NCBI GenBank assembly: GCA_965219845.1
Contig: CBDCOP010000007.1
Span: 236,442-300,441, forward strand
Direction: 5' to 3'
DNA length: 64,000 nt
Origin: Dehalococcoidia bacterium
Lineage (GTDB): Bacteria > Chloroflexota > Dehalococcoidia > Lucifugimonadales > Australimonadaceae
Shown here: positions 4,205-40,345 of the stretch, in pieces
How the letters are laid out: every line of letters begins with the position of its first letter
Position numbering within the stretch: the first letter of the stretch is position 1
The notes under the pieces: model-generated
The model's database searches: none
Seen by the model: the letters and a program-made list of their open reading frames with translations, nothing else
Told to the model about the DNA's origin: nothing
Position numbers and translations under genes: made by a program

Positions 4205-5173
4205 ATGCCTATCGGATTGGGTTTAGCGTCGAGCCACAACGGCTTCGTAATCACGAAGACGGCCGAGGGCTGGCAGAATTACTACCAGGTGCTCATCCGC
4301 AATACGCCGCAGCCTGCGTCGGCTGCACTGGAGACGGCGACGGTCCTCGAGGACTACATCCACCGAGTCGACGCGGCCTTCGCGGAGCTCCGCGAGCAGA
4401 TCCGCCAGTACGACCCGGAGCTGATCATCGTGATCGGGGGAGACCAGAGCGAGACGTTCGACCGGACCAACGTTCCCAACCTGATGATGTATCTCGGGGA
4501 CGAGATGTGGGGACACAGCACCCGGATGGGCCAGGAGCCGAGCGAGGAGACAGAGGTCCACCTCAAGGTGGACGTGGAGACGTCGCGAATGCTGCTTGAA
4601 CAGCTCGTGACCCGGGAGGGGTTCGACATCGCATTCAGCACCCTGCAGCGCCCACTGGGGAATGCTGTCCGCACGGGTCGCAACATGTCGCACGCGTTCT
4701 CTCGGCCGGTCCCGTTCCTCATTCAACGCTCCGACCTGCCGATGGTGTTGATCTTCGAGAACACGTACGACCCGCCTTCACTGTCGGCGACACGCTGCTA
4801 TGACCTCGGGCAGGCCCTGGCCCGGCTGCTGAGGGATGATCCACGCCGCATCGCCATCTTCGGCTCCGGCGGCCTCTCCCATGATCCTGGTGGGCCCCGC
4901 TCCGGATGGGTCGATGAGCCGCTGGACCGGTGGGTGCTCAAGCAGTTCGCGTCGGGCAACGGCGCGGCAACCAGGGACCTGTACCGGTTCGACTCGCTCA
5001 CGATGCGCAGTGGCACCGGCGAGATCCGCGCCTGGGTAACCGTGGCGGGCGCGATGGAAAGCATCGGGGCGCACGCTGAGGTGGTCGAATACATCCCGGC
5101 GAACCATGCCGTGACCGGTCTCGGGTTCGCGTATTGGAAACCTGCGCCCATACCGGTTGGCGTCGGGAGTTGA
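4205..5173 (+). CDS. Class III extradiol ring-cleavage dioxygenase (LigB/DesZ-like)
   Basis: N-terminal ASSH, GGDQ.E, SHAF, GSGGLSH and GEIRAW motifs; GGAGG SD. Confidence 0.85.
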   Translation: MPIGLGLASSHNGFVITKTAEGWQNYYQVLIRNTPQPASAALETATVLEDYIHRVDAAFAELREQIRQYDPELIIVIGGDQSETFDRTNVPNLMMYLGDEMWGHSTRMGQEPSEETEVHLKVDVETSRMLLEQLVTREGFDIAFSTLQRPLGNAVRTGRNMSHAFSRPVPFLIQRSDLPMVLIFENTYDPPSLSATRCYDLGQALARLLRDDPRRIAIFGSGGLSHDPGGPRSGWVDEPLDRWVLKQFASGNGAATRDLYRFDSLTMRSGTGEIRAWVTVAGAMESIGAHAEVVEYIPANHAVTGLGFAYWKPAPIPVGVGS

Positions 5174-5177
5174 AGCC

Positions 5178-5912
5178 GTGAACGACAACAAGATTGCCAT
5201 AGTCACCGGAGGCGGGTACGGCATCGGGCGAGGCGTCGTATTGGCGCTCGCGAAGTCGGGCTGGACGCCTGTCGTCTACGAGCTGAATGAGGAGCGGGCC
5301 CAGCGGACCCGAGATCTGGTGATGGAAGCCGGCGGCCGCTGCGAGATATTCCAGGGCGACGTCACCGACTGGGAGCGCGTCCAGGAGGGTGTTGCGTACG
5401 TGATGGACGAGTTCGGTCGGCTCGACGGCCTCGTCAACAACGCGGGGGCCCGGTACGCGGGATCGGTGCTGGACGTCACCGAGGAACAGTGGGACTTCAC
5501 CGTGAACATCGTGCTGAAGGGGCCCTTCCTGATGTGCAAGGCGGTGATACCCCACATGATCAGCGCCGGGGGAGGATCGATCGTCAATATCTCGTCAGGC
5601 GACTCCTACGGGAGGAAGGGGATGATTCCGTACGCCGCCGCGAAAGGCGGGATCAACACCCTCACCTTATGCCTGGCAGCAGACCACCTGGAGCACCACA
5701 TCAGGGTCAACGCGGTGCTCCCGGGTTTCACCGTCACGGGCATGACCGAACACTACGCACCCGAACGCCTGGCAGCGTCGGGAGCGCGCCTGGTGGCTGC
5801 CCGGCCCGGGCAGCCCGAGGACGTGGCCAACATGGTGGAGTTCCTCATGTCGGACAAGGCCGAAACCATAACGGGAGCGATCTTCGGGGGCCTCCCGCTG
5901 GCGAACCGTTAG
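5178..5912 (+). CDS. SDR family oxidoreductase
   Basis: TGGGYGIG, NNAG, YAAAK motifs; GTG start assumed. Confidence 0.92.
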   Translation: MNDNKIAIVTGGGYGIGRGVVLALAKSGWTPVVYELNEERAQRTRDLVMEAGGRCEIFQGDVTDWERVQEGVAYVMDEFGRLDGLVNNAGARYAGSVLDVTEEQWDFTVNIVLKGPFLMCKAVIPHMISAGGGSIVNISSGDSYGRKGMIPYAAAKGGINTLTLCLAADHLEHHIRVNAVLPGFTVTGMTEHYAPERLAASGARLVAARPGQPEDVANMVEFLMSDKAETITGAIFGGLPLANR

Positions 5913-6028
5913 GCTGCGTCCCTGCACAGACCGTCTCGCTGCCCGCGAGGGCAGATGGAGCCGCCCGGATAGCGGTGACCCCGTTTGGCGCTACGCAAGC
6001 CCCATGGATGAGCGATTGGTCAAGATAC

Positions 6029-7480
6029 ATGCGCGCGAGGCTCGAATTCACCCCACGGAGCAAAGCGCTCGTCCTGCTGATGATGTTTCAGTCCACGATG
6101 CACATCGGCACGACGGCCGGGTTGAACGTGGCGTTGCCCCAGATGGTCGAGGACTTCAACGCGGACGTTGGCATCGTGGTCTGGGTGCAGGTGGCGTACG
6201 GAGTGGGGCTGATCGGGACAGCGTTGCCCCTGGGCCTGTTGATCTCTCACTTCGAGCCTCGGCGCGTCATCGTATTCAGCCAGGTCTTCGAGTTGGCGGT
6301 CTGCCTGGTGATAGCGCTGACGCCGAACGTCTACGGCGTGATCGTGCTGCGGGTGCTCCAAGCCTCGGTCCGCTCCCTGCCATGGCTGAGCCTCCAGATG
6401 CTCAGCATCGGCCAGTTCCCCCCAGAACAACGCGGCCGAGTCCTCGCCGTAACCACCTTCGCCGTGGGCGCGTCGATGCTGGTGTCGCCGCCGTTGGTCG
6501 GTCTCGTCACCGACCGATGGGACTGGCGCTGGGTATTCGTCGGAACAGGCCTGGTGATGGGGCTGATCGGCGTGCTCGCGGCTTCCTGGCTCAAACCGTC
6601 GGGAGTGGAGCGCCCTCCGATACGAGAGCGGCTGGCAGGTTTCGACCTGTTGGGCAGTCTCTTGCTGATGGCCGGAGCGGTCGGCCTGATCGTCGCCCTC
6701 CAGTTGACCATCCGCGTGTCGCTGGGACTTGGCCTGGGCATCGCCGCTTTGTCAGTGCTGGCGCTGGCCGGTTCAGTGCGCGTGGAGATGCGGCACCCGG
6801 ACCCGGTGATCCCCATCCGGCTCTTCCGCATCCCAGGTGTTTTCCTGGGCGCGAGCCAGGCAGTCATGATGGGATGGGTAACCGGTGCGTTCCTGTTGAT
6901 CCTTCCATTCCTCTTCATCAACGGGTACGGATGGTCGGCGGCCTACGCCGGGAGCATCCTCTTCTTCGTCAGCGCCGCGAGGCCACCAGGGAGCTTCGTG
7001 TCCGGGTGGCTCTCGGACCGGTTGGGGAGCACTGCGATCGTCATCCCCGCCGCGGCGTGCATCGTTGCAGCCCAACTGTTCATCGCGACGCTTGGGCTCG
7101 CGCCCTGGCTCGTGCTCATCATCGTCGGCGTGCTGGTCGTCGGTTTCGCACAGGCGATAGGTCAGACGGCCAACCTGAGACAGATGTACGCGTCCGTGCC
7201 CCAGGAGACGCTCCGGCTCGCTCCCGGGTTGAACGTCGTGCTGATGTCCCTGGGCAGCACTACCGCGCAGGCGGTCGTCGCATCCACCATCGCCGCAGCG
7301 ACGATCACCGTCGGGGGCGGAGGCAGCCCGGACCTCGTGAGTGCAGCGTCGCGGGCCATAGTCATGACGACCGCCGTGTACGGATTCGGGATGGTGGCAA
7401 GCCAATTGTGGCCGAGGTTCGCCATGAGGCGAGCTGCGACGGCCGAAGAGGTAAGTGAGAAGCCAGGCCGCTCCGATTGA
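6029..7480 (+). CDS. MFS transporter (DHA2/EmrB-like, about 14 TM)
   Basis: LNVALPQM, FPPEQRGR, GWLSDRLG motifs; start may instead be 6008. Confidence 0.85.
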   Translation: MRARLEFTPRSKALVLLMMFQSTMHIGTTAGLNVALPQMVEDFNADVGIVVWVQVAYGVGLIGTALPLGLLISHFEPRRVIVFSQVFELAVCLVIALTPNVYGVIVLRVLQASVRSLPWLSLQMLSIGQFPPEQRGRVLAVTTFAVGASMLVSPPLVGLVTDRWDWRWVFVGTGLVMGLIGVLAASWLKPSGVERPPIRERLAGFDLLGSLLLMAGAVGLIVALQLTIRVSLGLGLGIAALSVLALAGSVRVEMRHPDPVIPIRLFRIPGVFLGASQAVMMGWVTGAFLLILPFLFINGYGWSAAYAGSILFFVSAARPPGSFVSGWLSDRLGSTAIVIPAAACIVAAQLFIATLGLAPWLVLIIVGVLVVGFAQAIGQTANLRQMYASVPQETLRLAPGLNVVLMSLGSTTAQAVVASTIAAATITVGGGGSPDLVSAASRAIVMTTAVYGFGMVASQLWPRFAMRRAATAEEVSEKPGRSD

Positions 7481-7537
7481 GCGAGCCTGCACTGCGCAGT
7501 ATGATACGGACAGCAAAGAGTAGGTCGGGAGGGCATC

Positions 7538-8494
7538 ATGGCACGTCTAACGGCAGGTATGGCATCTTCCCACGCTTTCGCGCTGCGAAACCCGCAGGAC
7601 TGGGACGAAGGTCGGACGAAGAACAGGAAGGGTTACGAGCGCCAGTACGGCACACTCCCGCCCGAACATCCGAAGACCGCCGCTGAGACGGACTCGGACG
7701 TGGAACAGCGCTATGCCGACATCTCCGGCGCTCTGGACAATCTGGGGGCAGAGATCGCCCGACAGTCCCCCGACGTTCTGATCGTCGTAGGCGACGACCA
7801 GAACGAACTGTTCTTCGATCAGTCCCCCCAGCTTGCCATCTACAAGGGAGGGCCTTTCGTCGTGCCTCCTCGTGACGACCAGACGGAGGAGATCACCTAC
7901 CAGGGAGCGCCCGAGCTGGCCAGCGCCATACTCAATGAAGCGGTTGAGTCCGGCATCGACCTCGCGTTCGTCAACAAGTTCCCCCGCGACCTGCTGGTCT
8001 CACATGCGTTCGGTCCAGTGCTGTTCAGGATCGCTACGCCTACTGTGCCGGTGATTCCGGTATTCGTGAATGCCGTGAACCACCCCGGGCCTTCGCCGAG
8101 CCGGTGCATCAAGTTGGGCGAGGCGATCCGGCGCGCCGTCGACAATTTCCCCGGCGACCAGCGCGTAGTGATCTGCGGCAGTGGCGGGCTCTCCCACTTC
8201 ACCGCGGGATACCCCTACAGCGCGGGGAACTTCCAGTACAACGCGATCGACATCGACTTCGACCGCAGGAACGTGGAACTCATGCGGGAGGGTCGCACAC
8301 GGGAGTTCGAGCAGCTGACCATCCGGGACCTGGTCGATGCCGGGAATATCGAATTCCGGTCCTGGCTGGTGATGCTCGGCGCCATTGGGTCAGTCAAGCC
8401 CAACTTCATCGTGTATCAGCCCTTCCACCGCGGCCTCATGGGGATGGGGGTTGGCTTGTGGCGGATCGAAGAACGCGAGGCGGCGTTAGCTTGA
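7538..8494 (+). CDS. Class III extradiol dioxygenase (MhpB/LigB-like)
   Basis: ASSH, GDDQNE, SHAF, GSGGLSH, EFRSW motifs. Confidence 0.87.
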   Translation: MARLTAGMASSHAFALRNPQDWDEGRTKNRKGYERQYGTLPPEHPKTAAETDSDVEQRYADISGALDNLGAEIARQSPDVLIVVGDDQNELFFDQSPQLAIYKGGPFVVPPRDDQTEEITYQGAPELASAILNEAVESGIDLAFVNKFPRDLLVSHAFGPVLFRIATPTVPVIPVFVNAVNHPGPSPSRCIKLGEAIRRAVDNFPGDQRVVICGSGGLSHFTAGYPYSAGNFQYNAIDIDFDRRNVELMREGRTREFEQLTIRDLVDAGNIEFRSWLVMLGAIGSVKPNFIVYQPFHRGLMGMGVGLWRIEEREAALA

Positions 8495-8639
8495 GTAACG
8501 ATACGCGCGACTCTGGGCGGGGCCTGGTACACCCAAAGCGCTGGACATCGGCGTCGAACAAGCCCTTGTTGCGTTATGATGGTCACCGATGGCTGCATCC
8601 GCGACGATGTGTAACTATGTTTAGACGCAGGGAGGCCCA

Positions 8640-9959
8640 ATGACTACATCTCTCCCAGACGCGCACGACCTGGTGGATTTCGATCAGGGACTCGTCAGCC
8701 GGAAGATCTTCTCCGACCCCGACATCTACCGGCTGGAGCTGGAGCAGATCTTCGCACGCTGCTGGCTCTACCTGGGCCACGAGTCCCAACTCCCCAATCC
8801 CGGCGATTACATCAACGTGTTCATGGGTGAAGAGCCCGTGCTCGTCGTCCGGAACCGCCAGGGCAAGCTCAACGCCTTCATCAACAGTTGCCGCCATCGG
8901 GGCAACCGTGTCTGCCGGGCGGACGCCGGCAACACGGCTTCCTTCCTGTGCACCTACCACGGCTGGACGTACGACCTGGACGGGAAGCTGATCGGGGTAC
9001 CGGGGCACCAGGAGCTGTACCACGGCGAGTTGAACCGCGAACAGTGGGGGTTGGCGCACGTTGCCCAGGTGGCCAGCTACGGTGGGCTGATCTTCGGCAC
9101 GTTCGACCCGGACGCGCCGTCACTGGACGAGTACCTGGGCGACATGCGGTGGGGCCTGGACCTGCTGGTGGGCCAGGGCGACATGGTGGCCGTGCCCGGC
9201 GTCATCCGTTGGCAGATGAACGTCAATTGGAAGTTCGCCGCCGACAACGCCATCGGCGATAACTACCATGGCATCACCCACATCTCCTCGCAGATTGCCG
9301 GGCACTCCAGCGCGGAAGGGACCCGTAGAGGAGCCGGTCTGCGCAAGGCGGGCGAACGGACCGGCTTCTCCGTAGTTACGGAGTACGGCCACGGGTTCAA
9401 CGCCGACTACATCAACGAAAACACGTTCAACTGGGACTCCCCAGGCGCCTATTGGCGTAAGGACCCCGAGGTACAGAGGTTCATGGGGCCCCTCAGGAAT
9501 CGGGTCAACCGGACGAACCAGAATGTGTTCCCGAACCTGTTTGTCAACTCAGGCTCACGGGAGTTGATGCTCCGTAATCCGCTGGGGCCTACGAAGATGG
9601 AGATATGGAAGACTATGTTGATTGACCGCAATGGGCCCATGGACTCACGCCGCATGATGATGCGAGGAGCAAATCGGCACTTCGGTCCTGCTGGCATGTT
9701 CGAGCAGGACGATGGCGAGAACTGGGACCAGAGCACCTACGGGACGCGCGGTTTCGTCTCCCGGCAGTACGACCTCAACTACAGCATGGCCATCGGTCAC
9801 GGCGAGCTCATTGTCGATGAGCTAGGCCCGCCACGCATTGAGTCCCTCTCGAATGAACACTGCCAGCTGTGGCATTACCGGTGCTGGGCCGAGTACATGG
9901 CTGCGCCTAGTTGGAAAGATCTGATGGCCAATCACTCCAAGCCGGTTGGCGTCCTCTAG
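8640..9959 (+). CDS. Rieske ring-hydroxylating oxygenase alpha subunit (copy 1)
   Basis: CRH...CTYH Rieske motif; NWK..DN..D.YH..TH and DDGENW mononuclear Fe motifs. Confidence 0.95.
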   Translation: MTTSLPDAHDLVDFDQGLVSRKIFSDPDIYRLELEQIFARCWLYLGHESQLPNPGDYINVFMGEEPVLVVRNRQGKLNAFINSCRHRGNRVCRADAGNTASFLCTYHGWTYDLDGKLIGVPGHQELYHGELNREQWGLAHVAQVASYGGLIFGTFDPDAPSLDEYLGDMRWGLDLLVGQGDMVAVPGVIRWQMNVNWKFAADNAIGDNYHGITHISSQIAGHSSAEGTRRGAGLRKAGERTGFSVVTEYGHGFNADYINENTFNWDSPGAYWRKDPEVQRFMGPLRNRVNRTNQNVFPNLFVNSGSRELMLRNPLGPTKMEIWKTMLIDRNGPMDSRRMMMRGANRHFGPAGMFEQDDGENWDQSTYGTRGFVSRQYDLNYSMAIGHGELIVDELGPPRIESLSNEHCQLWHYRCWAEYMAAPSWKDLMANHSKPVGVL

Positions 9960-34290: not shown

Positions 34291-35928
34291 TCAGCCGAAC
34301 AGGTCGCTCCTCGATGGAGTGGAGGCCGAACCCGGCGCAGCGCTGTGTCCCGGAACAGTCATATCCGCGTAGAAGGCCTCGTCGTAGGCCCGCGTCCGCA
34401 CGACCACCGGCATCGGCAGCGCGTGTCCGAACATGAGCGACTGCTGCTGCGACTCCAGCCGCGACAGTACGGTGCGCAGCTCTCGCGCTCCCGGCGCGCC
34501 GGTCAGCACCGCGTCGACGTCGCGGTCGTTGTCAAGCTGGCAGACGATGCGCGTGCCCACCTGGCTCAGCACTTCGCCGTCGATGCCGGACGGGCGCTGG
34601 TCCACCACGAGCAGTGTCACCCTGTACTTCCGCATCTCCCGCGCGATCGTCCCGAAGATCGTCTGCCCCGCGACACCGGGGTCGAGGAAACGGTGCGCCT
34701 CCTCGATGGTGATGAGGAGCGGCGTGGGCTGGGGTCTGCCCTCGGCCAGCGCCTTCTCCGTGCGCTCACGGTACTCTGCGTGGATGCGCCGTGTGATGAG
34801 GTTGGCCACCAGCAGGTAGGCCGTGATGTTGTCGCCGTAGCTGCCGAACTCCAGCACGACGTGGCGGTTGTCTTGCAAGTGCTCCAGCACCTGGCGCACG
34901 GCGCTGCCGCCGGTCGAATGCTCTGACATGAATCCGAACCGATGCAAGACGGAGAGCCTGCGCCGGAGCGCCCCGAGCGTCCCCGCGTTCTCCCCCATCG
35001 AATCGGCCAGCGATGCCAGGTCCTCCTGGGAGTGGTTCAGGAAGTCCAGCAGCCAGTCCCGGCCGAAGCGGCGCTCCAGCGAATAGCACGACTGCACGCC
35101 CAGGTCCGTGACGTGCAACGTGGAGGCCAGTACCGCGATGTCGTCCGGCTCGATCTCGTCGAACCCGATGCGCACGTCGTAGTCCGTTTGCGCACCCCGG
35201 CGGCGCGACGACGCGGGGTCGAGCGTGAACACAGAGACACGGCTCCCGAACAGCTGCTTCAGCCCCTTCGCCGCATAACCGGACTCGGACGTGGACTGCC
35301 AGCCGTACTCGCTGTGCATGTCGAACACGAGGTTGATGGCCGCGTTGCGCTGCAGGATGCCCGCGAGCAGGATGCGCGTGAGGAAGCTCTTGCCGGAGCC
35401 GCTCTTCCCGAAGACCCCGTTGGAGCGCTTCACGAACTCCTCCAGGTTCAGGCAGACGCGCGTGTCTTCCATGTCCAGCGGGCTGCCTATCCAGATGTGG
35501 CGCGCGTCCTCGCTGCCGAAGATGGCGGCCACGTCGTCGTTGGACGCGCGGTAGGCGTTCGCGAAGTGCGGCGGCATCGAGCGCGCGGGCTGCGGCCCCT
35601 CGTCGCTCGCGCTCATCGTGAGCATCGGCGTTACGGACGCCGTCGAGTACGCTGTCGTGCCAGAGAGCGCCTCCGCCAGCGCCGCGCCTCCCCCGGCGGC
35701 AGCCGACGCCATGCGCGGATCGCTGCTTTCCAGCAGCAAGTCGGTCACGATGCCGAAGAAGCGGCTGAACTGCCCGTGCACCGTAACGAATGTCCCGACC
35801 TTCACGTCCTCCACAGCGCGTGCCGACTCCAGGCGCACGTCGAGCCCCCGCGAGAGCGAGCCACCCGCGACCGCCCCGATGCGTACGGGTGCGTCCGGCT
35901 CGGTGCCGTTGGAGGTCACGGTACTCAC
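34291..35928 (-). CDS. herA: HerA-family ATPase (HAS barrel + FtsK/HerA domain)
   Basis: GKSGSGKS, FDMHSEY, IEEAH, REMRKY, QRPS. Confidence 0.88.
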   Translation of the reverse strand: MSTVTSNGTEPDAPVRIGAVAGGSLSRGLDVRLESARAVEDVKVGTFVTVHGQFSRFFGIVTDLLLESSDPRMASAAAGGGAALAEALSGTTAYSTASVTPMLTMSASDEGPQPARSMPPHFANAYRASNDDVAAIFGSEDARHIWIGSPLDMEDTRVCLNLEEFVKRSNGVFGKSGSGKSFLTRILLAGILQRNAAINLVFDMHSEYGWQSTSESGYAAKGLKQLFGSRVSVFTLDPASSRRRGAQTDYDVRIGFDEIEPDDIAVLASTLHVTDLGVQSCYSLERRFGRDWLLDFLNHSQEDLASLADSMGENAGTLGALRRRLSVLHRFGFMSEHSTGGSAVRQVLEHLQDNRHVVLEFGSYGDNITAYLLVANLITRRIHAEYRERTEKALAEGRPQPTPLLITIEEAHRFLDPGVAGQTIFGTIAREMRKYRVTLLVVDQRPSGIDGEVLSQVGTRIVCQLDNDRDVDAVLTGAPGARELRTVLSRLESQQQSLMFGHALPMPVVVRTRAYDEAFYADMTVPGHSAAPGSASTPSRSDLFG

Positions 35929-36572
35929 TCGATGGGGAGCCGCCGCATGATTGCGGCGAGCCGGGCGGCGTCAGTAGGGAGTTGCACCGCTATCGCGCGG
36001 CATGCCTGCACGAGGAACGCGCGGGGGTCGTCGAACTCCGGCGCAGCCTCACGCAACGCCGCCGCGATCACGTCGTCTGCGGTCGGCAGCGCGCTCGCGA
36101 GCACGAGCGCCGTCCAATCGCTCCGCTCCATGAAGCCGCGGACCTCTGCGCCCGAGCAGGCGTAGAGGAACGTGTGGATGCGCGGCGGCAGCGGCGGCAG
36201 GTGCTGAAAGTAGCGTGCTCCCTCCTCGTGCCCGACGACGGTCAACGTGACGTCCGTGCGGAGCAGCCGCTCCAGTTGCGGGTTCTCGGCGTACACGTCC
36301 GACTCCGACGCCAGCTCCGCGCCGCGTGCGATGACGCGCCTGCCGGGGTCGAGCGCCGCCGTGCTCACGCCGTCCACGACGGCGAACAGCGATGCGCCCA
36401 CGCGCACGAGCGTTCCCAGCGGCGGCGCGCCGTATAACGTGTGGCATTGCCCGACGACCCGGTCCACCGACGCCTCGACGACCTCGCCGAACTTCGGGAG
36501 GCCGGGGGCTGCCGTCGGGAACGCTGGTCCGGTCGCGGGAGAAGGACTGCTTGCTGGCCGTGCAGCGGACAT
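35925..36572 (-). CDS. HAS-barrel domain protein
   Basis: GEVVEAS, PPLGTLVRV, LP..PPRIH; overlaps the herA start. Confidence 0.75.
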   Translation of the reverse strand: MSAARPASSPSPATGPAFPTAAPGLPKFGEVVEASVDRVVGQCHTLYGAPPLGTLVRVGASLFAVVDGVSTAALDPGRRVIARGAELASESDVYAENPQLERLLRTDVTLTVVGHEEGARYFQHLPPLPPRIHTFLYACSGAEVRGFMERSDWTALVLASALPTADDVIAAALREAAPEFDDPRAFLVQACRAIAVQLPTDAARLAAIMRRLPIE

Positions 36573-36610
36573 GCGGCTATTGTAGCGTAGCAACGCTGGA
36601 GGAGACGCCC

Positions 36611-37693
36611 ATGACGACGAACAACTCCAACGAGGCCCCGCACTTCACGCGCGAGTGGCTTATCGACGCGCTGCGCTACGTGCGGCGCGACTTCGAGGCT
36701 GCCGCCGCCGGCGAGGCTGGCCTCTCTGGCGATGGCGACGCCCGCGCCCGTTCGCGCATGGAAGCGGCGCGCCGCATGGGACTGGACGCCCTCGCCGACG
36801 AGGCGATGGTCGCGATAGACCGCGCCGTCGACGAGGCCGCGCGCCTCGAATGGCCGGGCGGGCTGGAGGTGCGCTACACCGCGCTTCTCGGCGCACTCAG
36901 GACGCTCGCGCAGGCGAGCAGCGCGCTCAACGATCACACGCCGGAGCGCCCGCACCTCACCTACCTGGCCGAGACGATGGCGCGGGCCGAACTCGCCGCA
37001 GCCAGCCTCGTCCGCAGGCGTCGTGCGGAGCGACTGCACGGGCTGTACGTCATCGTCGACCCATCGCTCACTCGCGACCGCGATCCCGTCTGGGTCGCGG
37101 AGCAGGGCATCGCCGGAGGCGCGACGGCCATCCAACTGCGCGTCAAGGAGACCGACAAGGGCCGCTGGCTGCCGCTCGCTGAAACCCTGCGCGGCATCTG
37201 CGCGCAGGCGGGCGCAGCCCTCATCATCAACGACCATCCGGACGTGGCCGTGGCCGTGGAGGCGGACGGCGTCCACCTCGGCCAGAACGACATGCCTGTC
37301 GCGGCTGCCCGCGCCTCGCTGCGCCCCTGGCAGATAGCAGGCACGTCCAACGCGCTCACGACCGAGGCCGATGTGTCGCTGCAGGCGGGAGCGGACTACG
37401 TCGCGGTGGGGCGCATGTTCCCCACCGGCTCGAAGGCCGACACGCGCCCGGCGGGACCGGAGACGCTGCGCGCCGTGCGCGACGTCATGCCGCCCGATGG
37501 CCCGCCGCTGCTGGCGATAGGCGGCATCACGCCGGAAAACGTCGGAGAGGTCGCCCGCGCGGGCGCTGACGGCATCTGCGTCATCGCTGCCGTCACCCAG
37601 GCCGACGACCCCCGCGCCGCCGCCGCCCGCCTGCTGGAAGCGTTCCGGGCTGCAGCCCGAGCAAACAAGGAGCTCAACGGGCCTGGATTTTGA
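36611..37693 (+). CDS. thiE: Thiamine-phosphate synthase with N-terminal helical extension
   Basis: IQLR.K, IINDHPD, GVHLGQND, T.SK, AIGGI. Confidence 0.92.
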   Translation: MTTNNSNEAPHFTREWLIDALRYVRRDFEAAAAGEAGLSGDGDARARSRMEAARRMGLDALADEAMVAIDRAVDEAARLEWPGGLEVRYTALLGALRTLAQASSALNDHTPERPHLTYLAETMARAELAAASLVRRRRAERLHGLYVIVDPSLTRDRDPVWVAEQGIAGGATAIQLRVKETDKGRWLPLAETLRGICAQAGAALIINDHPDVAVAVEADGVHLGQNDMPVAAARASLRPWQIAGTSNALTTEADVSLQAGADYVAVGRMFPTGSKADTRPAGPETLRAVRDVMPPDGPPLLAIGGITPENVGEVARAGADGICVIAAVTQADDPRAAAARLLEAFRAAARANKELNGPGF

Positions 37694-37917
37694 CCTTCTT
37701 GTTCCCTGTTTTACGAGTAAACCGGCCATGCCGTTTGAGTTCCTTGATCTCCTTGTTCGGAGCGTTTTCCATGGCCACGGCCTGCTTCCGGGGATTCCGA
37801 GGCAACAAGGCAACAAGATTTCATCGAGAACGAAGTTTTCGCGCCGGAGCCACAGGACCTGTTCTATAGCTGGGCCGTGAGGTGTAGACGTGGTCTATGG
37901 GTGGTGTGTGCGCGACG

Positions 37918-37972
37918 GTCATGGACCCAGCGTAGCGGACACGGGGGCGACCGCGTAAGCGGCGCATGTCAC
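37918..37972 (+). repeat. Conserved ~55-nt dispersed motif, copy A (copies at 45436-45490 + and 49039-49093 -)
   Basis: GTCA....CAGCGTA(C)GCGGAC....GGCGA....GTAAG.GGCG..TGTCAC shared by three loci. Confidence 0.7.
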
Positions 37973-38020
37973 AGTCCGAGAATCAACAGGGATGGACGGA
38001 ATGCACAGGATGGGGATGAG

Positions 38021-38149
38021 GGAGTGGGGCGCAGCACGCCCCACTCCAACCCTGCCACGCCATGCCGCGCCCAGCCTAACCGCACCCTACCGTGCCGGGC
38101 CTAGCCATGCCCTGCCGCGAATCTGAACCATGCCTTGCCTCGCCATGCC
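38021..38149 (-). ncRNA. Phased GGY-NN pentamer array with 3' hairpin (putative guide-like ncRNA)
   Basis: 5 units (38149-38125), 8-nt linker, 14 units (38116-38047), then GGAGTGGGGCG-TGCTG-CGCCCCACTCC. Confidence 0.75.
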
Positions 38150-38169
38150 CTGAAACAACCCAGTTGGGT

Positions 38170-38352
38170 CACTTCCGCCTCGAAGCGCCCGTAGGTGCCG
38201 GACTTCTCAGGCCGCCGGTCGCCCAAGCCGATCCTGCGCCCCGCGATGTCCAGCCACGACTCCAGCTGCTCCTTGTCGACGAGCTCGTCGTCGCAGTCCA
38301 GTGTGAATGTGCACGACCACTCATCGAACTTAGCCCTCGTCCGGAGGATGCA
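38170..38352 (-). pseudogene. C-terminal fragment of a RAMP/Cas7-like (phage-type) protein
   Basis: ILRTRAKFDEWSCTFTLDCDDELVDKEQLESWLDIAGRRIGLGDRRPEKSGTYGRFEAEV: beta-helix-Gly-rich loop-beta pattern; 5' part missing, REP palindrome at the break. Confidence 0.7.
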
Positions 38353-38361
38353 GGGGGCGAG

Positions 38362-38381
38362 GTTCCTGCCTCCGCAGGAAC
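38362..38381. repeat. REP-like palindrome GTTCCTGC-N4-GCAGGAAC
   Basis: Related copies near 46515 and 48273; ATTCCCGC-N4-GCGGGAAT variants near 27866, 44470, 46548. Confidence 0.75.
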
Positions 38382-38449
38382 GACGAGGCAGGGCGGACCG
38401 CGACACGCCCCTACAGGCTGCCCACCCCAATCCTGATACCATGCACCGC

Positions 38450-40345
38450 ATGCCCGATCCACTCTCAGGCGAGGAGACAACCACGCTTACGCTGCACCTG
38501 CGCGCGCTCGGCAGGCAGGGTGAGGCGCTCGCGGAGACGGACGACGGCAAGCCCGTTTTCGTCTTCGGCGGCATCCCCGGCGAGACCGTTACCGCGGAGG
38601 TCGTCGCGACCCGACGCGGCTACGTCGCAGCGCGCGTGACGGACGTGACGGACCCGTCGCCGCACCGCGTCGCCCCTGACTGCCGCTATTTCGGCGCGTG
38701 CACCGGCTGCCAGTGGCAGCACATCGCTTACGAGCGTCAGCTCGAGATGAAACGTGAAGCACTAGTCGACGCACTGAGCCGCGTCGGCGGGTTGGACGTC
38801 GAGCCGCTGCCCACGCTGCCCAGCCCCGACCGGCTGAGCTACCGGAATCACGCGCGCTTCACCGTGAGCAAGCAGGGCGGGCGGCTCGGCTACGTCCACA
38901 AGGAGCGCCGACGCCACGTGGAGGTGGAGGAGTGCCTGCTGATGGCGCCGTGGATCAACCACGCGCTGGCGTCGCTGCAGGGACACGTCGCTGAGACGAC
39001 CCAACTCTCCCTCCGTTACGGCGTACACACCGGCGACTACCTGCTGCAGCCGACCTTCCAGAACATGGACGTGCCGCTCGCGTCAGGCCAGAAGCACTAC
39101 CAGGAGGCGCTGCTCGGCCACCGCTTCCGCGTCAGTTCGCCGTCTTTCTTCCAGGTAAACACCCGCCAGGCGGAGCAGATGGCCGAGCTCGTCATGAGAG
39201 AACTGCGCCTGGACGGCTCGCAGACCGTCGTGGACGCCTACGCCGGTGTCGCGACGTTCGCCGTGCTCATGGCGGACCGGGCGCGGCACGTGATCGCGGT
39301 CGAGGAGTCTGCGGCGGCGGTGGCCGACGCCCGCGTGAACGTCGAGGGCATCCCGAACGTGGAGCTGCGGCAGGCGCGTACGGAAGACGTGCTCCTGGAG
39401 CTCACCGCCGGAGGCGTGGACGCGGTGCTGCTGGACCCACCGCGCGCCGGTTGCATGCCGGGGACGCTCGACGCGCTGCTGGACGTTCCGCCGGCGCGCG
39501 TCGTCTACGTCTCATGCGACCCCGAGACGTTCGCGCGTGACCTCGCCATCCTCACCGCTGGGCCGTTCCGCATCGAGCAGGTGCAGCCCGTCGACATGTT
39601 CCCCCAGACCTACCACGTCGAGGCCGTCGCGACGCTCGTCCGCGACGACGAGCGGCTCGCGCGGCTGCGAGCGCGGCAGGAGCTCGTGCTAGCGTCGTCG
39701 TCGCCGCGCCGCGCCGAGATTCTCGGACGATTGGGGTTCGCGTTCGAGACGGCGGAGCCGGGCGTCGACGAGCCTGACCCTCCTTCCGGCGCGGACGCCA
39801 TGGAGGTCGCTCGGGGGCTCGCGCTCGCGAAAGCCCGCGCCGTGGCGTCCCGCCGGAGCGCGGGAGCCGTGCTCGGCGCCGACACCGTCGTCGAACTGGA
39901 CGGCGTCGTGCTCGGCAAGCCCCGCGACGAGGACGACGCCGCGCGGATGCTGCGCGAACTCCGTGGCCGCGAGCACCGCGTCATCACGGCGGTCGCGCTC
40001 GTCGACGCCGCGACCGGCGAGACGGCGGAGGCGTACCGGGCGTCGCGCGTGCTGATGCGCGACTATACCGACGGCGAGATCGCGGCGTACGTCGCCTCCG
40101 GCGCGCCGATGGACAAGGCGGGCGCGTACGGCGTGCAGGACGATGCGTTCGCTCCGGCTGAGGAGGTGCGCGGCTGCTACCTGAATATCGTCGGGCTGCC
40201 GGTCTGCGAGACCCTCAAGCTGGCGGAGCGATTCGGCCTGCGGCTGCGCCCCCGGCTCGATGCGCCGTGGCCTGCGCTGGAGCGTTGCCCGGCGTGTGCA
40301 GAGCAGGTGCACCCGAAACCCCTCAACGGGCGCAGCAAGCGATGA
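38450..40345 (+). CDS. rlmD: 23S rRNA m5U methyltransferase RlmD/TrmA family fused to a Maf nucleotide pyrophosphatase
   Basis: TRAM domain, C..FG.C.GC 4Fe-4S motif, FFQVN, LDPPR.G, YVSC, DMFPQT.HVE, then LVLASSSPRR, GADT, GKP, DKAGAYG. Confidence 0.9.
   Translation: MPDPLSGEETTTLTLHLRALGRQGEALAETDDGKPVFVFGGIPGETVTAEVVATRRGYVAARVTDVTDPSPHRVAPDCRYFGACTGCQWQHIAYERQLEMKREALVDALSRVGGLDVEPLPTLPSPDRLSYRNHARFTVSKQGGRLGYVHKERRRHVEVEECLLMAPWINHALASLQGHVAETTQLSLRYGVHTGDYLLQPTFQNMDVPLASGQKHYQEALLGHRFRVSSPSFFQVNTRQAEQMAELVMRELRLDGSQTVVDAYAGVATFAVLMADRARHVIAVEESAAAVADARVNVEGIPNVELRQARTEDVLLELTAGGVDAVLLDPPRAGCMPGTLDALLDVPPARVVYVSCDPETFARDLAILTAGPFRIEQVQPVDMFPQTYHVEAVATLVRDDERLARLRARQELVLASSSPRRAEILGRLGFAFETAEPGVDEPDPPSGADAMEVARGLALAKARAVASRRSAGAVLGADTVVELDGVVLGKPRDEDDAARMLRELRGREHRVITAVALVDAATGETAEAYRASRVLMRDYTDGEIAAYVASGAPMDKAGAYGVQDDAFAPAEEVRGCYLNIVGLPVCETLKLAERFGLRLRPRLDAPWPALERCPACAEQVHPKPLNGRSKR

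What the first reader, a model, noticed from the sequence alone, without database searches (positions are those of the whole stretch)
38021..38352. RAMP/Cas7-like gene remnant followed by a phased GGY-NN array and terminal hairpin: candidate non-contiguous RNA-guided system
Seen in the sequence (minus strand, directly 3' of ...GRFEAEV): GGC-AT GGC-GA GGC-AA GGC-AT GGT-TC, the linker AGATTCGC, then 14 units at exact 5-nt period: GGC-AG GGC-AT GGC-TA GGC-CC GGC-AC GGT-AG GGT-GC GGT-TA GGC-TG GGC-GC GGC-AT GGC-GT GGC-AG GGT-TG. A perfect 11-bp hairpin follows (GGAGTGGGGCG-TGCTG-CGCCCCACTCC). The GGY triplet is invariant while the dinucleotide varies freely, which is unlike a slippage microsatellite, and a period of 5 cannot be a codon pattern. 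Established: the peptide end G-x-G-D-x-R...G-x-Y-G-R-F is the glycine-rich loop of RAMP (Cas7/Csm3-type) RNA-binding proteins, which polymerise along guide RNAs with a fixed step. Inference: each protomer binds a GGY and the NN pairs (AG AT TA CC AC AG GC TA TG GC AT GT AG) together spell a gapped target, with the hairpin defining the 3' end. From memory, this resembles a recently reported phage-borne 'VIPR' architecture; I have not verified this. No cas1/cas2 or CRISPR array is nearby.
Basis: partly seen in the sequence, partly recalled or inferred. Interest (0 to 1): 0.95.

Follow-up and report, generated by a model that had tools for sequence, protein, structure and literature searches.

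The report
Decayed VIPR locus with solo guide
This is the leftover of a recently described phage-type RNA-guided system (VIPR): the last third of its protein gene plus one intact-looking guide RNA gene, stranded between two housekeeping genes and most likely no longer working by itself.

Summary
On the minus strand, a 5-unit and an exact 14-unit GGY-NN array follow the ...GRFEAEV peptide and end in an 11-bp hairpin. It is the only run of 6 or more units in the 3.54-Mb genome.

Three bioRxiv preprints of 2026 describe a Vipr RAMP protein plus vrRNAs of 9-16 GGY/NN repeats that read DNA with a one-base skip.

The peptide is residues 135-198 of a ~198-aa family. Its profile matches the solved SUSP1 Vipr protein (PDB 36pp, E 5e-22). 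Of 72 homologous loci, 62 carry such arrays beside the gene.

Here the gene is dead:
- two thirds are deleted at a host REP-like repeat;
- the Trp that stacks on G2 of GGY is Arg;
- the stop codon is lost;
- the 98%-complete genome has no intact vipr.

No target was found for the guide.

Most likely this is a young relic. Less likely, it is a "solo vrRNA" served by a foreign Vipr, a class already published in October 2026. It is a new but degenerate member of a known kind, of modest interest.

The parts
38158..38351 (-). vipr pseudogene remnant: codons about 135-198 of a ~198-aa Vipr (RAMP) gene. It holds the thumb Arg (RTR) and the G-loop GLGD[W>R]RPEKSGTYGRF. The stop codon is lost.
   Evidence: tblastn of P0001, P0010 and P0064 finds only residues 135-197/198, at C7:274790-274599. 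DNA homology to 39 related loci starts at 38351 at the earliest. The fragment alone hits PDB 36pp_D 'SUSP1 Vipr protein' at E 4.8e-5, residues 136-190. phrog_4652 matches at E 2.5e-13, profile positions 136-192 of 194. W179 is invariant in 26 of 26 aligned homologs.
38125..38149 (-). Short 5-unit GGY-NN run (GGCAT GGCGA GGCAA GGCAT GGTTC). It starts where the first vrRNA starts in relatives, so it is a shortened or degenerate first vrRNA.
   Evidence: Near-identical 5-unit blocks occur inside the arrays of L002, L003 and L004.
38117..38124 (-). 8-nt linker AGATTCGC between the two runs. It shifts the phase by 3.
   Evidence: 'gttcgc' also precedes the first unit in L001.
38047..38116 (-). vrRNA guide region of 14 exact GGY-NN units. 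NN = AG AT TA CC AC AG GC TA TG GC AT GT AG TG. It ends in the family-typical ...GGCAG GG motif.
   Evidence: the only run of 6 or more units in the genome. In relatives, the last NN is AG in 29 of 76 runs, against 7% of internal units. Run lengths in relatives have a median of 12 units, and the published range is 9-16.
38021..38047 (-). Terminal hairpin (11-bp stem, 5-nt loop) directly after the last unit. It is the likely 3' structure or terminator of the last vrRNA.
   Evidence: I5. MFE is -25.2 kcal/mol. Strong GC hairpins follow the last array run in many relatives (for example L003, L006, L008, L016, L017, L019, L025, L030). Of the 56 loci with a downstream run and 45 nt after it, 36% fold at -18 kcal/mol or lower, against 12% of random 45-mers from the same loci.
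38353..38386 (.). Host REP-like palindromic repeat (core GTTCCTGC-CTCC-GCAGGAAC) abutting the point where the vipr gene is cut off.
   Evidence: About 270-310 BLAST matches in the genome cover this stretch. There are 133 + 130 copies of the 20-nt core at 2 or fewer mismatches, and only one in the window. Summed contig depth is 4600-9100 in bin 38344-38427, against tens elsewhere.
37664..38015 (.). Host dispersed repeats on the other side of the relic: a ~310-bp element (37664-37972) and a ~40-nt element (37976-38015).
   Evidence: 46 BLAST matches in the genome, with about 25-36 copies covering 37750-37970. There are many copies in genomes of the same genus and none in the 72 vipr loci.
36392..37693 (+). 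Flanking housekeeping gene, thiamine-phosphate synthase (thiE-like). Its last codons are replaced by the insert.
   Evidence: Pfam TMP-TENI, E 8.4e-53.
38441..40345 (+). Flanking housekeeping gene, a TRAM / tRNA(U5)-methyltransferase / Maf fusion. It is divergent from the relic.
   Evidence: Pfam Maf 2.7e-54, tRNA_U5-meth_tr 3.9e-18, TRAM 2.3e-6.

Best explanation
The finding is the remnant of a VIPR (Viral Interference Programmable Repeat) locus.

In an intact locus, a ~198-aa Vipr protein (a minimal RAMP) polymerises on its vrRNA, one protomer per GGYNN repeat. The protein holds the GGY bases. The NN bases are left free to pair with double-stranded DNA, skipping every third base, and this silences the target. 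These steps are published, not shown here.

In this genome a deletion ending at a host REP-like repeat removed codons 1-134 and everything upstream. What is left is the last 64 codons, a 5-unit array stump, one complete 14-unit vrRNA gene and its terminal hairpin. All of it lies inside a 767-bp patch of repeats between thiE and a rumA-maf gene.

The protein part is dead. The RNA part is structurally intact, most likely only because the loss is recent. By itself the locus cannot act.

My odds: the identity as a VIPR remnant is about 0.95. Given that, it is a functionless young relic at about 0.7, a solo vrRNA still used with a Vipr supplied in trans at about 0.2-0.25, and something else for the rest. 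The confidence figure of this field (0.68) is for the whole statement, identity and inert relic together.
For: Family identity:
- A profile of 26 full-length homologs hits PDB 36pp_D 'SUSP1 Vipr protein' at E 5.2e-22 over 4-195 of 199 positions.
- The window fragment alone hits the same chain at E 4.8e-5.
- An AlphaFold model of the homolog P0001 (pLDDT 91.2) has type VII Cas7 and Csm3 as its best PDB folds (E 6.6e-6, TM up to 0.53).

Link between array and gene:
- 62 of 72 homologous loci have a phased GGY run of 6 or more units on the gene's strand. In 57 it lies within 1.5 kb downstream, in 5 within 0.7 kb upstream.
- That is 125 runs in 193.5 kb near the gene, against 2 runs in 1.26 Mb of strand elsewhere.
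- In the genus, runs of 9 or more units occur in 5 of 22 genomes. These are the 4 with an intact vipr, always beside it, plus this one.

Decay:
- Only residues 135-198 are encoded, and there is no other copy in the 98%-complete genome.
- Trp179 is invariant in 26 of 26 homologs. It is equivalent to SUSP1 W178, which stacks on G2 of GGY. Here it is Arg.
- The TAG stop is lost.
- H17, helix-1 and the first RRM strands are deleted.

Origin:
- Five genomes of the same genus (G005, G013, G014, G015, G016) have thiE and rumA only 21-82 bp apart. The insert here is 767 bp, and the relic is bounded by host repeats on both sides.

Youth:
- pN/pS against four intact relatives is 0.09-0.18, so nearly all divergence arose under selection. 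By my arithmetic a neutral 42-position GGY set then has roughly even odds of being untouched.

Decay is common in the genus: 3 of the 7 vipr-bearing genomes have broken genes.
Against: - All 14 GGY triplets and the hairpin are perfect, which could also reflect selection on the RNA.
- Solo vrRNAs left by vipr deletions are reported to be functional and common in enterobacterial phages and satellites.
- The genome is a 9-contig assembly. An intact vipr on an unbinned phage or plasmid cannot be excluded.
- A second, different vipr allele is present at higher depth in the best-matching run (record 4).
- No expression data of any kind were available.
Confidence: 0.68

Rival explanations
1. It is a functional solo vrRNA. 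The array is still transcribed and loads onto Vipr proteins brought in by invading or co-resident VIPR-carrying elements. It then redirects them to a target or decoy, as published for satellite and phage solo vrRNAs.
For: - The array is intact at 14 of 14 units, has the family-typical 3' end and keeps its terminal hairpin.
- Solo vrRNAs that arose by deletion of vipr are published.
- Intact vipr occurs in 4 of 22 genomes of the genus, and a second vipr allele is present in run X1.
Against: - The locus is not on a recognisable mobile element. It is a 767-bp patch between housekeeping genes.
- The leftover third of the gene, with its mutated Trp and lost stop, looks like an accidental deletion.
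- The guide shows no excess of matches to host repeats or to any site in its own genome compared with shuffled guides. It also shows none to the 72 vipr loci.
- The simple consensus scan found no promoter-like site (weak evidence for this phylum).
- Arrays of 9 or more units were not found away from a vipr gene or vipr remnant in any of the 22 genus genomes.
Confidence: 0.2
2. It is an active cis system. The short RAMP remnant itself still polymerises on the adjacent GGY-NN RNA.
For: The remnant keeps the thumb Arg and most of the G-loop. An ORF (38101-38574) is formally open.
Against: - The N-terminal 134 residues are absent. They include strand 1 with the G1-contacting His, and helix-1, which forms the Y3 pocket.
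- The upstream part of the open frame is antisense to the rumA-maf start and matches nothing.
- The G2-stacking Trp is Arg.
Confidence: 0.02
3. It is a slippage microsatellite or a chance G-rich tract unrelated to the peptide.
For: None beyond the high G+C content (0.65).
Against: - The tract is unique in the genome.
- TRF finds no pentanucleotide tandem repeat there, because the NN vary.
- The same architecture lies beside the homologous gene in 62 of 72 loci.
Confidence: 0.005
4. It is a fragment of a CRISPR-Cas type III or type I effector gene (Cas7/Csm3).
For: The Foldseek neighbours of the full-length homolog are Cas7 and Csm3 chains.
Against: - Sequence membership is with Vipr (E 5e-22). 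No Cas protein appears in the PDB sequence search even at E up to 10.
- There is no Pfam Cas family hit.
- There is no Cas1 in the genome.
- The repeats have period 5, not the repeat-spacer units of CRISPR.
Confidence: 0.005

Closest known systems
VIPR systems (Vipr protein + vrRNA). Sources: bioRxiv 10.64898/2026.04.26.720920 (read: outline, Results, Discussion, methods sections 18, 20, 26, 27) and the cryo-EM companion 10.64898/2026.04.26.720927 (read: abstract, section 5).
   Same: - The protein family is the same (PDB 36pp match), with the same RAMP fold.
- The conserved G-loop Asp-Trp-Arg and the thumb Arg are shared.
- The guide has GGY/NN pentanucleotide repeats within the published 9-16 unit range, followed by a structured 3' end.
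- Arrays lie directly beside the gene.
- There is no CRISPR array or cas1.
   Different: - The gene here is truncated to its last third and mutated.
- The 3' structure is a simple GC hairpin at the end of the array, whereas the SUSP1 clade has a ~40-nt pseudoknot tail.
- No conserved accessory (vap) gene was found next to this clade's vipr in 58 loci with full flanks.
- The hosts are Dehalococcoidia and other MAG lineages, not enterobacterial or Pseudomonas phages.
- Which of the seven published types this clade belongs to could not be determined, because the supplements are closed.
Solo (orphan) vrRNAs of VIPR-null phages and F5 satellites. Source: bioRxiv 10.64898/2026.10.15.759431 (read: abstract, sections 7, 8, 29).
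   Same: One or two vrRNAs are left without a working vipr after a deletion that removed the gene.
   Different: - The published cases sit on phages or satellites and lack vipr and vap1 entirely. Their predicted targets are host REP elements, rival vipr genes, rival vrRNAs or satellites.
- Here the RNA sits in a chromosome between housekeeping genes, and a third of the gene remains.
- No REP-type, vipr-type or other target was detected.
Cas7/Csm3 backbone subunits of class 1 CRISPR-Cas effectors
   Same: They share the RRM core, glycine-rich loop and thumb, and they polymerise along a guide RNA with a fixed step. The mechanism is as stated in the preprints.
   Different: - There is no detectable sequence membership.
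- The step is 5 nt, with three bases held and two presented. Class 1 crRNA has base pairing disrupted at every sixth position.
- There are no cas genes and no CRISPR array.

Membership tests
VIPR system | Encodes a Vipr protein, meaning sequence homology to characterised Vipr | tested here: met
   A profile of 26 homologs hits 36pp_D 'SUSP1 Vipr protein' at E 5.2e-22 over nearly the full length. The window fragment alone scores E 4.8e-5.
VIPR system | The vipr gene is complete and could give a folded RAMP (RRM core, thumb, G-loop) | tested here: not met
   Only residues 135-198 of about 198 are encoded, and there is no second copy in the genome. The full-length homolog folds as a RAMP, but the remnant lacks strands 1-2 and helices 1-3.
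VIPR system | GGY-contacting residues are conserved (SUSP1 H17, R138, D177, W178, R179) | tested here: not met
   The family conserves all of them. In the window R138, D177 and R179 have equivalents. The W178 equivalent is Arg, and the H17 equivalent is deleted.
VIPR system | vrRNA gene: tandem YNNGG/GGYNN repeats (9-16 published) with invariant GGY and variable NN | tested here: met
   There are 14 exact units plus a 5-unit stump. The 14 units carry 9 different NN dinucleotides.
VIPR system | A structured, conserved 3' tail follows the repeat tract | tested here: inconclusive
   An 11-bp hairpin directly follows unit 14. Relatives often have a strong hairpin after the last run, but with a different sequence. 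No pseudoknot tail like that of SUSP1 was identified, and there is no Rfam model.
VIPR system | Arrays are physically linked to vipr across homologs and are not scattered in genomes | tested here: met
   62 of 72 loci carry arrays, with 125 runs near the gene against 2 far from it. In 22 genus genomes, arrays occur only beside an intact vipr or this vipr remnant.
VIPR system | Accessory vap gene next to vipr | tested here: not met
   No neighbouring ORF family is shared by more than 8 of 58 full-flank loci, apart from antisense artefacts of vipr and of the arrays. Some published loci are stand-alone genes.
VIPR system | vrRNA is expressed and bound by Vipr | not testable with these tools
   No RNA run was listed for this stretch.
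VIPR system | A natural target obeys the 1-nt skip rule (80% or more NN match) | tested here: inconclusive
   See Tried and rejected. The best match was 19-20 of 28 in every search, no better than controls.
Solo vrRNA (VIPR-null carrier) | vrRNA with a family-type 3' end is present while the carrier lacks a functional vipr | tested here: met
Solo vrRNA (VIPR-null carrier) | Carried by a phage or satellite and directed at REP elements, rival vipr or vrRNA, or satellites | tested here: not met
   The flanks are thiE and rumA-maf. There is no excess of matches to host repeats or to vipr loci.
CRISPR-Cas class 1 (Cas7/Csm3) | Cas7-family sequence membership, with cas genes and a CRISPR array | tested here: not met
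   No Pfam hit. No Cas chain appears in the PDB sequence search at E up to 10. There is no Cas1 in the genome. Only fold similarity exists.

The most novel reading that the evidence does not exclude
A bacterial chromosome, not a phage or satellite, keeps a solo vrRNA after losing vipr. It uses the RNA to capture the Vipr protein of invading VIPR-armed elements. This would turn the invader's own silencing machinery against it, or park it on a harmless site. It would be a host-side counter-measure in a lineage (Dehalococcoidia) far from the enterobacterial systems studied so far.
Probability: 0.12. Interest if true: 0.6.

Novelty: new member of a known kind. Interest (0 to 1): 0.3.

Why it matters
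VIPR was described only in 2026, and almost everything known about it comes from enterobacterial and Pseudomonas phages. This locus adds three points.

- A well-populated Vipr clade exists in Dehalococcoidia and other uncultured lineages. It carries large arrays and no conserved accessory gene.
- These loci are patchy and decay often. In this genus 7 of 22 genomes carry vipr, and 3 of those 7 copies are broken.
- Decay can leave a structurally perfect guide gene stranded in a chromosome.

This gives a natural case for asking how long an unprotected vrRNA gene survives, and whether chromosomal solo guides are ever used. As a system it is not new, and this copy is probably inert.

Tried and rejected
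Target search for the 14-unit guide. I followed the published convention of replacing each GGY by one wildcard.
- Own genome, skip rules 0-3: the best match was 19 of 28 under every rule. The only 28 of 28 was the array itself, under skip 3.
- Compared with 30 shuffles of unit order there was no excess at any score. 8-unit sub-windows showed none either, so a REP-decoy reading gets no support.
- 22 genus genomes and 401 class genomes, at 3 or fewer mismatches: 0 matches.
- Viral contigs, exact units 1-10, 5-14 and 3-12: 0 matches.
- Metagenome contigs, exact units 3-12: 0 matches.
- All 96 fetched loci, except the two from this genome: the best was 20 of 28.
- These public scans cannot see the 80% matches that the papers accept, so the blank is weak.

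Positive control. I scanned this genome with 51 guides of 10 or more units from related loci. The best fractions were alike under all four skip rules (0.70-0.72), so the skip rule was not validated for this clade.

Parent element. A search for the guide with Y at the wobble of GGY in metagenome contigs gave 0 matches. No related locus carries a guide like this one; the best was 19 of 28.

RNA evidence. No RNA holder was listed. The laid runs were contigs only, so nothing can be said about expression.

Other blanks.
- Rfam found nothing but two sub-threshold miRNA-like hits on the hairpin. It found nothing, including no hammerhead, in 9 related loci.
- The promoter scan found 0 sites.
- Pfam on the ORF and on the fragment found 0 families.
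- TRF did not report the array.
- There is no Y1/RAYT transposase that would explain the REP-like element.
- The VIPR type (I-VII) could not be assigned. The main text names no Chloroflexota, sponge, orphan or truncated loci, and the supplements, which may list this clade, are closed.
- Complex prediction, the protein atlas and the representative search were not used.

Full report
**1. What is in the sequence**

The finding lies on the minus strand of window 38021-38352. The reading frame ends ...LGDRRPEKSGTYGRFEAEVTQLG. It runs on into five units, GGCAT GGCGA GGCAA GGCAT GGTTC, then the linker AGATTCGC, then fourteen exact GGY-NN units. The 11-bp hairpin GGAGTGGGGCG/TGCTG/CGCCCCACTCC follows.

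Over both strands of the whole 3.54-Mb genome, phased GGY runs number 43 of four units, 4 of five units and one of fourteen. There are none in between. A relaxed scan adds nothing convincing. Tandem Repeats Finder does not report the array, because only three of every five bases repeat.

**2. The recalled system exists**

A literature search found three bioRxiv preprints of 2026.

The first (10.64898/2026.04.26.720920) describes VIPR systems.
- A ~20-kDa RAMP protein, Vipr, works with vrRNAs made of 9-16 YNNGG repeats plus a constant 3' tail.
- GGY is invariant and NN is hypervariable.
- The NN pairs read double-stranded DNA with one skipped base per repeat, and binding represses transcription.
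- The loci are 56% proviral and 25.5% in prokaryotic chromosomes.

The cryo-EM companion (10.64898/2026.04.26.720927) gives the structural basis.
- One protomer sits on each repeat.
- G1 is read by H17 and D177.
- G2 is held between R138 and W178.
- Y3 sits in a pocket that includes R179.

The third preprint (10.64898/2026.10.15.759431) describes 'solo vrRNAs' on satellites and on 346 phages that have lost vipr and vap1 by deletion. Some of them redirect a foreign Vipr to host REP elements or to rival VIPR loci.

**3. The peptide is the end of a Vipr gene**

- The 61-aa fragment has 388 longer homologs among 392 candidates. Most of the 120 listed are 195-201 aa long, with up to 97% identity.
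- tblastn with three of them finds only residues 135-197/198 in this genome, at window 38349-38158. There is no other significant match.
- PHROGs places the fragment at positions 136-192 of a 194-position family of unknown function. Pfam has nothing.
- A profile of 26 full-length homologs matches exactly one PDB sequence, 36pp 'SUSP1 Vipr protein', at E 5.2e-22 over almost the whole length. The window fragment alone matches residues 136-190 of that chain at E 4.8e-5.
- An AlphaFold model of homolog P0001 (pLDDT 91.2, pTM 0.85) has type VII Cas7 and type III Csm3 chains as its best PDB folds (E 6.6e-6 and up, TM 0.45-0.53). That is a RAMP fold. The Foldseek library copy predates the Vipr entries.

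**4. The array belongs to that gene family**

I fetched 72 loci encoding relatives from named MAG records of Dehalococcoidia, other Chloroflexota, Caldilineaceae, Binatia, Alphaproteobacteria, Acidimicrobiia, Vicinamibacterales and others.
- 62 of the 72 have at least one phased GGY run of six or more units on the gene's strand. In 57 it is within 1.5 kb downstream, in 5 within 0.7 kb upstream.
- That gives 125 runs in 193.5 kb near the gene, against 2 runs in 1.26 Mb of strand elsewhere in the same loci.
- In close relatives the first array starts about ten bases after the stop codon. Several arrays follow one another, and the last is followed by a GC-rich hairpin.
- The 3' ends are stereotyped. 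The last NN is AG in 29 of 76 runs, and the next bases are GGAA, GGAC or GGAG in 38 of 76. The window's guide ends ...GGCGT GGCAG GG, like the last guide of L003.

In the 22 genomes of the genus, runs of nine or more units exist in five. These are the four with an intact vipr, always beside it, and this genome.

**5. This copy is broken**

- DNA and protein homology to all relatives starts abruptly at window 38351/38349.
- Immediately beyond lies a 33-nt palindromic element. Its 20-nt core has 133 + 130 copies in the genome and only one in the window. It also has enormous summed depth in four metagenome runs.
- On the other side, just past the hairpin, lie a ~40-nt and a ~310-bp dispersed host repeat.
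- Five genomes of the same genus have thiE and rumA only 21-82 bp apart. Other genus genomes hold unrelated inserts there. The insert here spans about 37653-38419, or 767 bp.
- Within the remnant, the Trp that is invariant in 26 of 26 homologs is Arg. This Trp is equivalent to the G2-stacking W178 of SUSP1.
- The TAG stop has been lost, so the frame runs into the array.
- The rest of the formally open 157-codon frame is antisense to the rumA-maf start and matches nothing.
- No intact vipr is present in the 98%-complete assembly, and there is no Cas1.

**6. Age and fate**

Against four intact relatives, the remnant differs mainly at synonymous sites (pN/pS 0.09-0.18). It has therefore spent little time as a pseudogene. 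A perfect 14-unit array is then expected about half the time without any selection (my estimate). Within the genus, vipr occurs in 7 of 22 genomes. Four copies are intact and three are broken. The two other broken copies share a locus and have lost their arrays entirely. VIPR loci in this lineage are thus patchy and short-lived.

**7. Does the stranded guide do anything?**

No target was found in any of the following:
- this genome, under any skip rule or against shuffled guides;
- 22 genus and 401 class genomes, at 3 or fewer mismatches;
- IMG/VR or JGI metagenome contigs, exact 10-unit sub-patterns only;
- the related vipr loci.

The published decoy idea, a guide aimed at host REP elements, gets no support here. 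A control with 51 guides from relatives also found nothing in this genome. The likely targets of this clade are therefore absent from what I could search, and the blank is weak. No RNA data exist.

I rate a functionless young relic at about 0.7. I rate a solo vrRNA used with a Vipr supplied in trans at about 0.2-0.25.

**8. Comparison and novelty**

By sequence, fold, guide architecture and gene-array linkage, this belongs to the VIPR family. As a system it fails the test of a complete protein. Its state, a guide without a working vipr, matches the published 'solo vrRNA' condition. It does not match the published carriers or targets.

The following are not covered in the main texts I read, though the closed supplements may cover the clade:
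- the clade's hosts;
- the lack of a conserved accessory gene in 58 loci;
- the simple hairpin ending;
- the chromosomal, REP-bounded relic.

Verdict: a new but degenerate member of a known kind, of modest interest.

Noticed in passing
window 38353-38386; also G000 C7:412650-413420 (outside the window): A 33-nt palindromic REP-like element (core GTTCCTGC-CTCC-GCAGGAAC) has about 263 copies in the genome. Some form tandem clusters at ~45-nt spacing on both sides of a small ORF. No Y1/RAYT transposase was found. Summed depth is very high in four metagenome runs.
   Followed up: partly
window 37664-37972 (and 37976-38015): A ~310-bp dispersed repeat has about 25-36 copies at 67-84% identity in this genome and many more in the genus. 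It replaces the last codons of thiE here. There is no Rfam hit, and its nature (MITE or RNA gene) is unknown.
   Followed up: partly
thiE-rumA gap in L083 (G008), L084 (G010), L085 (G012), L086 (G003), L087 (G014): The same intergenic site varies from 21 bp to 2.6 kb among genus members. It carries unrelated cargo: an acetyltransferase-like ORF plus a 12-helix transporter-like ORF in G012, and a small coiled-coil membrane ORF in G008 and G012. It is an insertion hotspot.
   Followed up: partly
L093 (G031:C12) and L094-L096 (G010:C21): Two other genus genomes carry vipr pseudogenes with stops and frameshifts at a shared locus. They have no GGY-NN array left.
   Followed up: partly
L001-L072: This Vipr clade is 55-93% identical across MAGs labelled as different phyla, for example 76% between Dehalococcoidia and Alphaproteobacteria records. 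It has no conserved neighbouring gene. This suggests a mobile, stand-alone vipr-plus-array module.
   Followed up: partly
window 38106-38092 (minus strand, units 3-5); L004/G009 sixth guide; L001/G032 first guide: Guides in three genomes share the block GGCTA GGCCC GGCA. They may be diverged copies of one ancestral guide.
   Followed up: no
window 38203-38307, run X1 record 4: The best-matching run holds a second vipr allele, with 15 differences in 105 nt, at about five times the depth of the window's own contig. A Vipr-encoding element therefore co-occurs in that sample.
   Followed up: no
window 38441-40345: A single 634-aa ORF fuses TRAM, a tRNA(U5)-methyltransferase domain and Maf.
   Followed up: no
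window 34291-36593 (minus strand): A HerA-type ATPase (DUF87 plus HAS barrel) is followed by a 222-aa ORF with no Pfam family. The pair lies just upstream of thiE.
   Followed up: no
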